A DNA stretch of 55,219 nt from Acidilobus sp. Lineage in GTDB: Archaea; Thermoproteota; Thermoprotei_A; Sulfolobales; Acidilobaceae. Position 1 is the first letter of the stretch. Every line of letters starts with the position of its first letter. A program made the translations under genes and the position numbers. The notes beneath the pieces are model-generated. The model was not told where the DNA came from. It saw nothing but the letters and a program-made list of their open reading frames with translations, and searched no databases. Below are positions 205 to 50,493 of the stretch, in pieces. Location: NCBI GenBank assembly GCA_049974445.1, contig JBMFIT010000002.1, positions 1 to 55,219 of the forward strand, written 5' to 3'.

Positions 205-331
205 GCCCGGCCCGGCCATAGCGGCCGGGCAACACCCGGACTCGTCTCGAACCCGGAAGTTAAGCCGGTCGCGTTGGAGGGGCCAGTGAGGTCCGAAAGG
301 CCTCGCAGGCCCCTCCAAGCCGGGGCCGGGC
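205..331 (+). rRNA. rrf: 5S ribosomal RNA (stand-alone)
   Basis: Conserved 5S motifs GGCCATAGCGG, CACCCGGACTCGTCTCGAACCCGGAAGTTAAGCC; complementary ends GCCCGGCCC/GGGGCCGGGC; followed by a T-run. Confidence 0.95.
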
Positions 332-36342: not shown

Positions 36343-36420
36343 GCCGCGGTAGTATAGCCCGGCCAAGTATGCGGGCCTCTCGAGCCCGTGACCCGGGTTC
36401 AAATCCCGGCCGCGGCACCA
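36343..36420 (+). tRNA. tRNA-Glu(CUC), intron-less, CCA encoded
   Basis: GCCGCGG acceptor stem, anticodon arm CGGGC-CT-CTC-GA-GCCCG, T arm CCGGG-TTCAAAT-CCCGG, ends ACCA; TTAAATA promoter at 36311. Confidence 0.96.
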
Positions 36421-49273: not shown

Positions 49274-49678
49274 TCAGCTGCCTGAGAGCAGCTCTGACAT
49301 GTTGTGCCTTACCAAGTTGACTTCATAGCCTAAGTCTTTCAACACGGCGATTATCACGTCCTCACTAACCCTCCTATCGAAGGTTACAGTCACCTCCTTC
49401 TCGCTGTCTCTCCTGATTAGCTTAAGGCTGTCAACGACGACGGCCCCCCTTATCATGTCACCAATGTCCTTATCTGGCACGACGTAGTCCTTGAACTTCT
49501 TTTCTTGGAACTCATAGAACTCGTCAAAGTTCCTGACGATCCTTAGCGCCTCTATAACGTCCTTCGATTCCACATTAAGCCTCCTGCTAACCTCAACTAT
49601 TAGCCTCTCAGCGACGTCGAGTGGTACAGTTGCGCTCTTGTACTTGCCCATGTCAATCTCAAGCGTCACGGAGGGCAT
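49274..49678 (-). CDS. Hypothetical protein
   Basis: 134-aa ORF with strongly host-like codon usage. Confidence 0.75.
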   Translation of the reverse strand: MPSVTLEIDMGKYKSATVPLDVAERLIVEVSRRLNVESKDVIEALRIVRNFDEFYEFQEKKFKDYVVPDKDIGDMIRGAVVVDSLKLIRRDSEKEVTVTFDRRVSEDVIIAVLKDLGYEVNLVRHNMSELLSGS

Positions 49679-49740
49679 CGGACTCTCCCAGGAGCCTGTA
49701 ACACTCCAAGCTTAAAGCCTGAAGGCTCTCAGATGGTACA

Positions 49741-49797
49741 GGCCGATGATGTAGGTTAAAAGCCGTGAACGGTGAACGGGGCCAGGCGGCTGAGGTC
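49741..49797 (+). ncRNA. Box C/D guide sRNA predicted to methylate U34 of tRNA-Lys(UUU)
   Basis: GGCC-g-ATGATGT(C)-aggttaaaagcc-GTGA(D')-acg-GTGAACG(C')-gggccaggcgg-CTGA(D)-GGTC; 4-bp terminal stem; CTTAAAG about 25 nt upstream. Confidence 0.78.
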
Positions 49798-49806
49798 GGT
49801 TACCCC

Positions 49807-50493
49807 TTGACGGTAAGGGCACCAATAGTCGTTAAGCTGAGCGGCTCTCTTGTGTACCCTCTATCCCAGTCCTACCTCTGGAGGCTGAGGGCCGCAATAG
49901 AGTCGTTGGTGAGGGAGCGGGTGAGGGTTGGCCTAGTCGTAGGTGGCGGACCAATAGCAAGGGACTTGATAACGCCGCTTAGATCGCTCGGCGTCCCGGA
50001 GTCGCTCCTCGACGAGGTTGGCATTGAGGCCGCGAACCTTAACGCTTTGGCCGTTTCCCTCGCCCTTTACCCCCTTGCCCTCCCGCAGGTTCCCAGGGAC
50101 GTAAGGGACGCTGTGAGGATCTCCTTGGAGGGCCTGGTGCCGGTGATGGGCGGGCTCCAGCCTGGGCAAAGCACTAACGCGGTCGCAGCTGTTATGGCTG
50201 AGGCCCTCGGAGCCAAGCTACTCATCAACCTCCTCAGTGGTGTTGATGGGGTGTATACCGGTAGGCCCGGGGGGCCAGACTCGAGAAGGCTTGAGAGTCT
50301 TACCTATAATGAGCTTGAGCGTATAGTACTTGACAAGAGTCAGACTGCCGGGACCTACGAGCTCTTCGACCACGTAGCCTTAGGCGTAGTCAGGAGAAGC
50401 AGGATAACCCTCGTCTTTGTGAACGGCGGGGACCCCGATGTAATAGTTAAAATAGCAAAGGGTGAGAGGATAGGGTCCTGGGTCACGCCTTAG
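49807..50493 (+). CDS. pyrH: Uridylate kinase
   Basis: [34 protein letters not shown]; TTG 49807 preferred because the ORF-track GTG 49765 lies within the sRNA D' box. Confidence 0.92.

What the first reader, a model, noticed from the sequence alone, without database searches (positions are those of the whole stretch)
49741..49797. C/D guide RNA predicted to 2'-O-methylate the wobble uridine of tRNA-Lys(UUU), at the head of pyrH
The D' guide GGUUAAAAGCC is the exact reverse complement of GG-CU-UUU-AA-CC, a Lys(UUU) anticodon loop with its closing stem pairs. The N+5 rule from D' (GUGA) lands precisely on U34. Boxes, spacing, terminal stem and an upstream TATA all fit. The RNA ends 9 nt before the likely pyrH TTG, so it is probably co-transcribed as the mRNA leader, and L7Ae binding could regulate UMP kinase. 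The D guide target is unresolved; I see only a partial match to 16S CCGCCUGG.
Basis: partly seen in the sequence, partly recalled or inferred. Interest (0 to 1): 0.7.

Follow-up and report, generated by a model that had tools for sequence, protein, structure and literature searches.

The report
Two-armed guide for both lysine tRNAs
This is a conserved archaeal box C/D guide RNA whose first arm pairs perfectly with the anticodon loop of one lysine tRNA (so it is predicted to methylate its wobble base) and whose second arm changes in step with the intron of the other lysine tRNA across many lineages, which suggests that tRNA introns likely serve as docking sites that let one guide handle a second, imperfectly matched tRNA.

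Summary
The C/D sRNA at 49741-49797 is real. Its D' guide has one exact complement elsewhere in the genome, the tRNA-Lys(UUU) anticodon arm, and N+5 falls on U34. The family spans the class (161 of 351 genomes). Expressed homologues are catalogued without this target: Sac-sR26, Iho sR154, Tte sR106 and Pyrobaculum sR125. This scan met the family before on other DNA.

The D guide does not target 16S. It pairs with the intron of pre-tRNA-Lys(CUU), whose anticodon arm matches the D' guide except at N+5. Guide and intron co-vary, with compensatory changes: 57 of 70 genomes pair at 7 bp or more, and own pairs average 7.8 against 5.2 permuted over 28 genera (0/2000). Where that tRNA lacks the intron, the guide fits its D loop (5 of 5). 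Three other wobble guides in this genome also point a second arm at a pre-tRNA intron.

The pyrH link is confined to one family; co-transcription is likely and L7Ae control is untested. No methylation was measured.

The parts
49711..49717 (+). TATA-like box (CTTAAAG), between this RNA and a divergent 134-aa ORF
   Evidence: same position in 12 of 12 genomes of the genus; function inferred
49741..49744 (+). 5' strand of the terminal stem
   Evidence: pairs with 49794-49797; compensatory changes in 2 of 4 pairs in 13 homologues
49746..49752 (+). box C (AUGAUGU)
49753..49764 (+). D' guide; 49754-49763 pair with nt 31-40 of tRNA-Lys(UUU); A49760 (N+5) faces U34, and faces C34 as a mismatch in tRNA-Lys(CUU)
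49765..49768 (+). box D' (GUGA)
49772..49778 (+). box C' (GUGAACG)
   Evidence: the same C' is annotated in two Pyrobaculum sR125 members
49779..49789 (+). D guide; 49780-49787 pair by 8 Watson-Crick pairs with the intron of pre-tRNA-Lys(CUU) (G000:C26:12185-12192, minus-strand gene), N+5 on an intron C 21 nt after C34
   Evidence: co-variation across 28 genera
49790..49793 (+). box D (CUGA)
49794..49797 (+). 3' strand of the terminal stem; with box D it holds GAGGU (49792-96), complementary to the 16S 3' tail of relatives, 10 nt before the pyrH start
   Evidence: sequence; 16S tails printed; a role as ribosome-binding site is inferred
49807..50493 (+). pyrH, UMP kinase (likely start TTG 49807)
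   Evidence: TIGR02076 E 1.5e-54; start position

Best explanation
This is a box C/D sRNA whose D' guide pairs with the tRNA-Lys(UUU) anticodon arm and is predicted to direct 2'-O-methylation of U34, and whose D guide is complementary to, and co-varies with, the intron of pre-tRNA-Lys(CUU), which likely anchors that second, mismatched substrate on the same particle before splicing. Steps: (1) L7Ae, Nop5 and fibrillarin assemble on the two box pairs (inferred from the family; the genes are present). (2) The D' guide opens the Lys(UUU) anticodon loop with 10 pairs and U34 is methylated (predicted, about 0.9). (3) Pre-tRNA-Lys(CUU) is held at two sites, by 9 pairs plus an A-C mismatch at C34 and by 8 pairs in the intron (complementarity and co-variation shown; binding inferred, about 0.85). 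(4) The most likely purpose of the anchor is to obtain Cm34 on Lys(CUU) despite the mismatch (inferred, about 0.45; see rivals). (5) In this family the RNA is likely cut out of, or left as the leader of, the pyrH transcript (inferred, about 0.65).
For: Unique perfect target with N+5 on U34. Ten of ten pairs with the genome's own Lys(UUU) in 72 of 72 genomes, 70 of them fully Watson-Crick (partly forced by the search patterns). The 18 homologues found by pyrH synteny rather than by guide sequence all keep A at N+5. Homologues are expressed: Sac-sR26 has count 5170, Iho sR154 1360 and Tte sR106 169892 in the supplement of PMC4644070, and Sac-sR26 is L7Ae-enriched in PMC5539422. Fibrillarin, Nop and L7Ae families are in G000. 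D guide against own intron: 7 bp or more in 57 of 70 genomes, 8 or more in 42; one genome per genus gives 7.80 against 5.17 permuted, 0 of 2000. Compensatory changes occur inside the genus: G004 at -6, and G001, G005, G006, G009 at -7. An inserted A is met by an inserted U in g14. The CUU intron beats the UUU intron in 22 of 36 genomes, ties in 13 and loses in 1. Intron-less Lys(CUU) genes carry the match in the D loop in 5 of 5. No separate perfect guide for Lys(CUU) C34 was found in G000. Three other wobble guides of G000 aim their second arm at a pre-tRNA intron: 12 of 12 pairs for Thr(UGU) (0/300 shuffles), 11 for Thr(CGU) (3/300), 10 for Pro(CGG).
Against: Nothing was measured: no RNA data or modification data for this organism. 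PMC6009581 states that a Watson-Crick pair at N+5 is essential, and PMC1635284 reports a significant though incomplete drop with a mismatch there in a reduced complex; both argue against step 4. 13 of 70 genomes pair below 7 bp, among them 5 of 6 in g19 and 3 of 4 in g21. In G000 alone the 8-bp intron match is no better than chance over all tRNAs and rRNAs; the case rests on co-variation. Lys(CUU) was not retrieved in f11, f15 or f16, and the one f14 intron seen (G061) shows no match by eye. In several f13 genomes the intron shortens the D' duplex on the CUU precursor. In most f28 and f36 genomes N+5 is U, a mismatch to both Lys tRNAs. The D' duplex is weak as free RNA at 80 C (-2.5 kcal/mol).
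Confidence: 0.7

Rival explanations
1. Same binding, other purpose: the particle methylates the intron C and holds pre-tRNA-Lys(CUU) as a chaperone or splicing timer, and C34 stays unmethylated because of the A-C mismatch.
For: N+5 of the D guide is a Watson-Crick pair on an intron base in every scored match. Conserved N+5 mismatches are read as chaperone contacts in PMC6009581. U at N+5 is kept in most f28 and f36 genomes.
Against: Where there is no intron, the anchor moves to the D loop of the same isoacceptor, so splicing is not the common factor. In the other G000 guides the anchored substrate keeps a Watson-Crick pair at position 34.
Confidence: 0.3
2. The sRNA presents C34 of Lys(CUU) to another enzyme, for example the acetyltransferase that makes ac4C34, as yeast snR4 and snR45 guide acetylation.
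For: The mismatch leaves C34 unpaired. ac4C-34 is listed for archaeal tRNA in PMC2584109, and ac4Cm34 in PMC7668247. snR4/snR45 were seen only in a search listing.
Against: No data on Lys(CUU) position 34 in crenarchaea were found in text I could read. The boxes are canonical.
Confidence: 0.07
3. The D guide is an independent guide for C17 in tRNA D loops (Gly, Leu, Pro) or for 16S C848, and the intron match is incidental.
For: 9 bp with 2 G-U on Gly(CCC), 8 bp on Leu(CAG, GAG) and 8 bp on 16S of relatives. Pyrobaculum sR125 is predicted on tRNA 'C15'. Position 17 is methylated in S. acidocaldarius (PMC7668247).
Against: Guide variants that fit no D loop still fit their own intron (g5, g14, g23, g36, g63). 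For 16S, 49 of 51 guides with the core have a purine at -9, where 16S needs a pyrimidine. D-loop methylation may be a side activity.
Confidence: 0.1
4. The main role at this locus is an L7Ae-bound leader that controls pyrH translation.
For: Start codon 10-13 nt after box D in 11 of 12 genomes of the genus with no TATA-like box between. A GAGG motif lies in box D and the stem. L7Ae represses its own mRNA by masking the ribosome-binding site (PMC5539422).
Against: The link is limited to part of family f1 and the spacing reaches about 120 nt in other genera. sRNA genes within 25 nt of ORFs are common and are processed from longer transcripts (PMC7994747). It can only be an added role.
Confidence: 0.2

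Closest known systems
Sac-sR26 (Sulfolobus acidocaldarius) and Iho sR154 (Ignicoccus hospitalis), PMC4644070 supplement 1
   Same: Same box order and the same D' guide core; expressed; Sac-sR26 is L7Ae-enriched.
   Different: Sac-sR26 is listed NP/NP; tRNA targets were not compiled in that paper. D guides differ. Identical sRNAs in G335 and G054 match their own Lys(CUU) introns with 9 and 10 pairs (by eye).
Pyrobaculum sR125 family (PMC6009581) and Tte sR106
   Same: The same two guides.
   Different: Guide order is swapped. In Pyrobaculum N+5 is U and the guide is listed 'No tRNA prediction'. The other guide is predicted on tRNA 'C15' of R, M, T and K.
Known wobble guides: Pyrobaculum sR26, sR27, sR45, sR46, sR51; Pyrococcus guides for Leu(CAA), Leu(UAA), Met, Trp; the Sulfolobus guide for Gln(UUG) U34
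   Same: C/D guide aimed at position 34.
   Different: None is for Lys in the passages seen. Each is described with a single wobble target, and about 80% of tRNA-targeting sRNAs are said to have an orphan second guide.
Pyrococcus sR49 / Haloferax sR-tMet, and the pre-tRNA-Trp intron guide
   Same: Part of the intron pairs with the sRNA, so methylation precedes splicing (PMC2584109).
   Different: In the passage seen, the pairing serves a correctly matched target. Here a separate guide binds a separate intron site on a tRNA that is mismatched at N+5. The original papers were not available to check this.

Membership tests
Archaeal box C/D methylation guide sRNA | Boxes C, D', C', D with 10-12 nt guides | tested here: met
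Archaeal box C/D methylation guide sRNA | Terminal stem closing the C/D k-turn | tested here: met
   92% paired, 2 of 4 pairs compensatory in 13 homologues
Archaeal box C/D methylation guide sRNA | At least 9 Watson-Crick pairs to a target, with a Watson-Crick pair at N+5 | tested here: met
   D' guide on Lys(UUU). The D guide has only 8 pairs in G000.
Archaeal box C/D methylation guide sRNA | L7Ae, Nop5 and fibrillarin encoded | tested here: met
Archaeal box C/D methylation guide sRNA | Discrete RNA, bound by L7Ae, methylates the target | not testable with these tools
   Only homologues have published expression and L7Ae binding; no methylation data seen
Sac-sR26 / Iho sR154 / Tte sR106 / Pyrobaculum sR125 family | Shared anticodon guide core at the same register before a D-type box | tested here: met
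   N+5 differs in Pyrobaculum
Rfam C/D families (sR1, sR41) | Score at or above the gathering threshold | tested here: not met
   25.8 against 45 bits and 11.5 against 54 bits
Double-guide sRNA acting on one tRNA | Both guides pair with the same tRNA, each with a Watson-Crick pair at N+5 | tested here: not met
   On Lys(UUU) the D guide does not pair; on pre-Lys(CUU) both pair but D' has A-C at N+5
L7Ae-regulated k-turn leader (l7ae type) | K-turn overlapping the ribosome-binding site of a co-transcribed gene and repressing it | tested here: inconclusive
   The geometry fits in this genus; transcript and repression are untested

The most novel reading that the evidence does not exclude
Crenarchaeal tRNA introns carry docking sites for the 'orphan' second guides of wobble-methylation sRNAs. 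One guide RNA thereby serves a perfectly matched tRNA and a near-cognate pre-tRNA, and in this family the intron anchor overrides the Watson-Crick rule at N+5, so both lysine tRNAs are methylated at position 34.
Probability: 0.4. Interest if true: 0.8.

Novelty: new variant of a known kind. Interest (0 to 1): 0.62.

Why it matters
Why archaea keep tRNA introns, and what the orphan second guides of tRNA-targeting sRNAs do, are both open (PMC4090602 passages; PMC6009581). The co-variation ties the two together and gives a direct test in a genetically tractable host through Sac-sR26. It also assigns a target to a catalogued, L7Ae-bound orphan and predicts a ribose methylation at the lysine wobble base across a whole class. 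The wobble guide alone would be an ordinary new member of a known kind.

Tried and rejected
16S or 23S target for either guide: G000 has no assembled rRNA, so rRNAs of G002, G003 and G006 were used. One search had two 16S sequences in the wrong orientation and was redone; the best matches are at chance level.
D guide on the D arm of tRNA-Lys(UUU): significant in 23 of 72 genomes, not in G000 (p 0.29).
Longer pyrH start at GTG 49765: rejected.
The collection-wide pattern scan was too loose: most of 120 loci were bacterial chance hits, and 11 archaeal records showed the full layout.
The sigma-70 scan does not cover archaeal promoters. No RNA holder was listed. One search used wrong columns and was redone. 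A free fold of the CUU precursor did not give the cloverleaf and was not used.
Literature: ten searches gave no paper, among the listings and passages I saw, that assigns Lys U34 to this family or describes guide-intron co-variation. The paper on tRNA guides in Pyrococcus (PMC92551) is not held. The Lowe snoRNA database and several subscription papers could not be seen and may list the Lys target. Supplement file 2 of PMC7668247 was not searchable, and its Table 2 is not held as text.

Full report
Observation. The window is archaeal (A-type ATPase, RNA polymerase subunit K, archaeal PyrH). At 49741-49797 lie box C, a 12-nt guide, D' (GUGA), a 3-nt loop, C', an 11-nt guide, box D and a 4-bp stem. 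It is the only such layout that a simple pattern finds in the window. The complement of the D' guide occurs once elsewhere in the genome, in the anticodon arm of tRNA-Lys(UUU), with N+5 on U34. Lys(CUU) and Asn(GUU) have the same arm but for position 34. Chance is excluded: 0 of 300 shuffles and 0.0008 expected within tRNA genes. No Rfam family reaches threshold. Fibrillarin, Nop and L7Ae families are encoded.

Conservation. A strict pattern finds the RNA in 101 of 351 genomes of the class, with no hit for the reversed control. A looser one finds 161 of 351, with 12 control hits by my count of the table. Families missed there carry degenerate D' boxes: 16 of 19 in f2 and 44 of 44 in f13, where I judged the layout by eye. 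A swapped form, with the anticodon guide before box D, occurs in f28 (22 of 23), f36 (12 of 12) and f32 (8 of 24) of a 401-genome phylum sample; in most f28 and f36 genomes N+5 is U. Named records with the RNA are labelled Desulfurococcales, Sulfolobales, Thermoproteales and Thermoprotei. In 72 of 72 genomes with both RNAs in hand, guide positions -2 to -11 pair with the genome's own Lys(UUU) arm; the search patterns force part of this. The 18 homologues reached through pyrH synteny are free of that bias and all keep A at N+5. Position -1 is free (C in 3 of 102 parsed loci, of 106 tried), so the working duplex is 10 bp.

What is in print. Supplement 1 of PMC4644070 lists Sac-sR26, Iho sR154 and Tte sR106 with this guide; Sac-sR26 is marked NP/NP, and tRNA targets were not compiled (passages and supplement rows seen). 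PMC5539422 shows Sac-sR26 enriched with L7Ae (supplement rows, passages). PMC6009581 has the swapped family as sR125, with this guide listed 'No tRNA prediction' and the other guide on tRNA 'C15'; its wobble guides are for Trp, Gln, Val, Thr and Glu (sections 16 and 24 read). PMC7668247 (passages, sections 8 and 11, part of the supplement) reports Um34 in other Sulfolobus tRNAs and a methyl at position 17, and gave no data on Lys position 34 that I could read. PMC7994747 (passages, section 9), PMC4090602, PMC11408192, PMC4033218, PMC2584109 and PMC13520502 (passages) and PMC1635284 (abstract, section 13) were also consulted. Earlier notes of this scan report the same family on other DNA; one mentions a second guide that follows an Asn intron. 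That note prompted the next test.

The D guide. In G000 alone it cannot be assigned: 16S (8 bp), tRNA-Gly and tRNA-Leu D loops (8-9 bp) and the Lys(CUU) intron (8 bp) tie, and 280 of 300 shuffles do as well. Across genomes the tie breaks. I scored each D guide against the region 3' of the anticodon in its own intron-bearing Lys(CUU) gene, or Asn(GUU) gene in f10, where Asn was the intron-bearing gene retrieved. Of 73 genomes set up, 3 were dropped because a sequence did not parse. Own pairs reach 7 bp or more in 57 of 70 and 8 or more in 42. With one genome per genus (28 genera) own pairs average 7.80 against 5.17 after permutation, 0 of 2000. Kin are not independent, but the changes are compensatory within a genus: G004 has U at -6 facing A and scores 10 on its own intron against 4.5-6.5 on the other 11; G001, G005, G006 and G009 have U at -7 facing A; g14 has one extra base on each side. 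Unrelated guide sequences in g5, g23, g36, g63 and g91 each fit their own intron. The CUU intron beats the UUU intron in 22 of 36 genomes, ties in 13 and loses in 1. In G000 the scores are 8 against 4 (shuffle p 0.005). Failures: 13 of 70 below 7 bp, mostly g19 and g21. Where Lys(CUU) has no such intron, its D loop fits the guide with 8-9 pairs in 5 of 5 genomes, better than Lys(UUU) in 4 of them; 2 f10 genes retrieved of 5 sought have the same loop. G409, with the swapped form, scores 9 on Lys(CUU) against 5 on Lys(UUU) and Asn. In f3 the guide fits a D stem shared by several tRNAs, f32 is mixed, and Lys(CUU) was not retrieved in f11, f15 or f16.

Generality inside G000. Among 27 generic C/D candidates, three more wobble guides show the same plan. 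C1:14050(-) pairs 12 of 12 with Glu(UUC) at U34, and its other guide pairs 12 of 12 with the intron of pre-tRNA-Thr(UGU), whose anticodon arm fits the first guide at 10 of 12 positions, including U34. C31:11997(+) targets Val(CAC) C34, and its other guide fits the introns of Thr(CGU) (11 bp) and Met(CAU) (9 bp), whose precursors fit the first guide with G-U pairs. C53:7277(+) targets Leu(CAG) and Ser(CGA) C34, and its other guide fits the Pro(CGG) intron (10 bp). ARAGORN mislabels several of these genes; I read the identities from the sequences.

Mechanism. Um34 on Lys(UUU) follows from the N+5 rule (predicted). The second guide binds a near-cognate precursor (complementarity shown, binding inferred). 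In the Glu and Val guides the anchored substrate keeps a Watson-Crick pair at 34, so anchor-assisted methylation is the plain reading. For Lys(CUU) the mismatch falls on N+5 itself, which published rules say blocks methylation. I put Cm34 at about 0.45, chaperone or intron methylation at 0.3, and other outcomes lower. No dedicated Lys(CUU) guide was found, and AAG outnumbers AAA about ten to one in a crude count over long ORFs, so the CUU tRNA is likely the main lysine decoder here.

pyrH. The start is most likely TTG 49807. One TATA-like box lies before the sRNA and none between it and pyrH, so co-transcription is likely in this genus. A GAGG motif in box D and the stem could be masked by L7Ae, as in the l7ae leader. 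But the link is found in 18 of 30 pyrH loci, all in family f1, with spacing up to about 120 nt, and in 0 of 24 long-flank loci of other families. Such placement is common for archaeal sRNA genes. Regulation remains a possibility (0.2).

Verdict. A real member of a catalogued sRNA family. The Lys U34 target and the guide-intron co-variation were not found in the ten searches made; closed papers and the Lowe database may hold the first. New variant of a known kind, interest 0.62.

Noticed in passing
G000:C1:14050(-) (L386): C/D sRNA with a 12-bp guide for Glu(UUC) U34 and a second guide exactly complementary (12 bp) to the intron of pre-tRNA-Thr(UGU) at C12:23235.
   Followed up: partly
G000:C31:11997(+) (L387): C/D sRNA with a guide for Val(CAC) C34 and a second guide matching the introns of Thr(CGU) (C1:16422) and Met(CAU) (C41:3096).
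   Followed up: partly
G000:C53:7277(+): C/D sRNA with a guide for Leu(CAG)/Ser(CGA) C34 and a second guide matching the Pro(CGG) intron (C24:8929). Other candidates at C8:7503(-), C5:3415(+), C3:17912(-), C22:15559(+), C29:5491(-) and C46:10533(+) also match tRNAs.
   Followed up: no
L211-L228 (families f28, f36): Guide order is swapped and N+5 is U in most genomes: a mismatch to both Lys tRNAs and a wobble to G34 of Asn(GUU). Genus g135 and G531 keep A.
   Followed up: partly
G044:C1:179742-179766(-): A variant with G at N+5 before CUGA, which would be a perfect guide for Lys(CUU) C34. Two similar hits (L199, L213) look like coding-sequence chance matches.
   Followed up: no
window 49274-49678 (-): 134-aa ORF with no NCBIfam match, head to head with the sRNA and sharing the 60-nt promoter region.
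   Followed up: no
G000:C42:4092-4191 and C26:12139-12245: Both tRNA-Lys genes carry introns in the variable loop. ARAGORN mislabels several intron-bearing tRNA genes of this genome, for example Lys(CUU) as Glu.
   Followed up: yes
window 208-328 and 36343-36420: 5S rRNA gene and tRNA-Glu(CUC).
   Followed up: no
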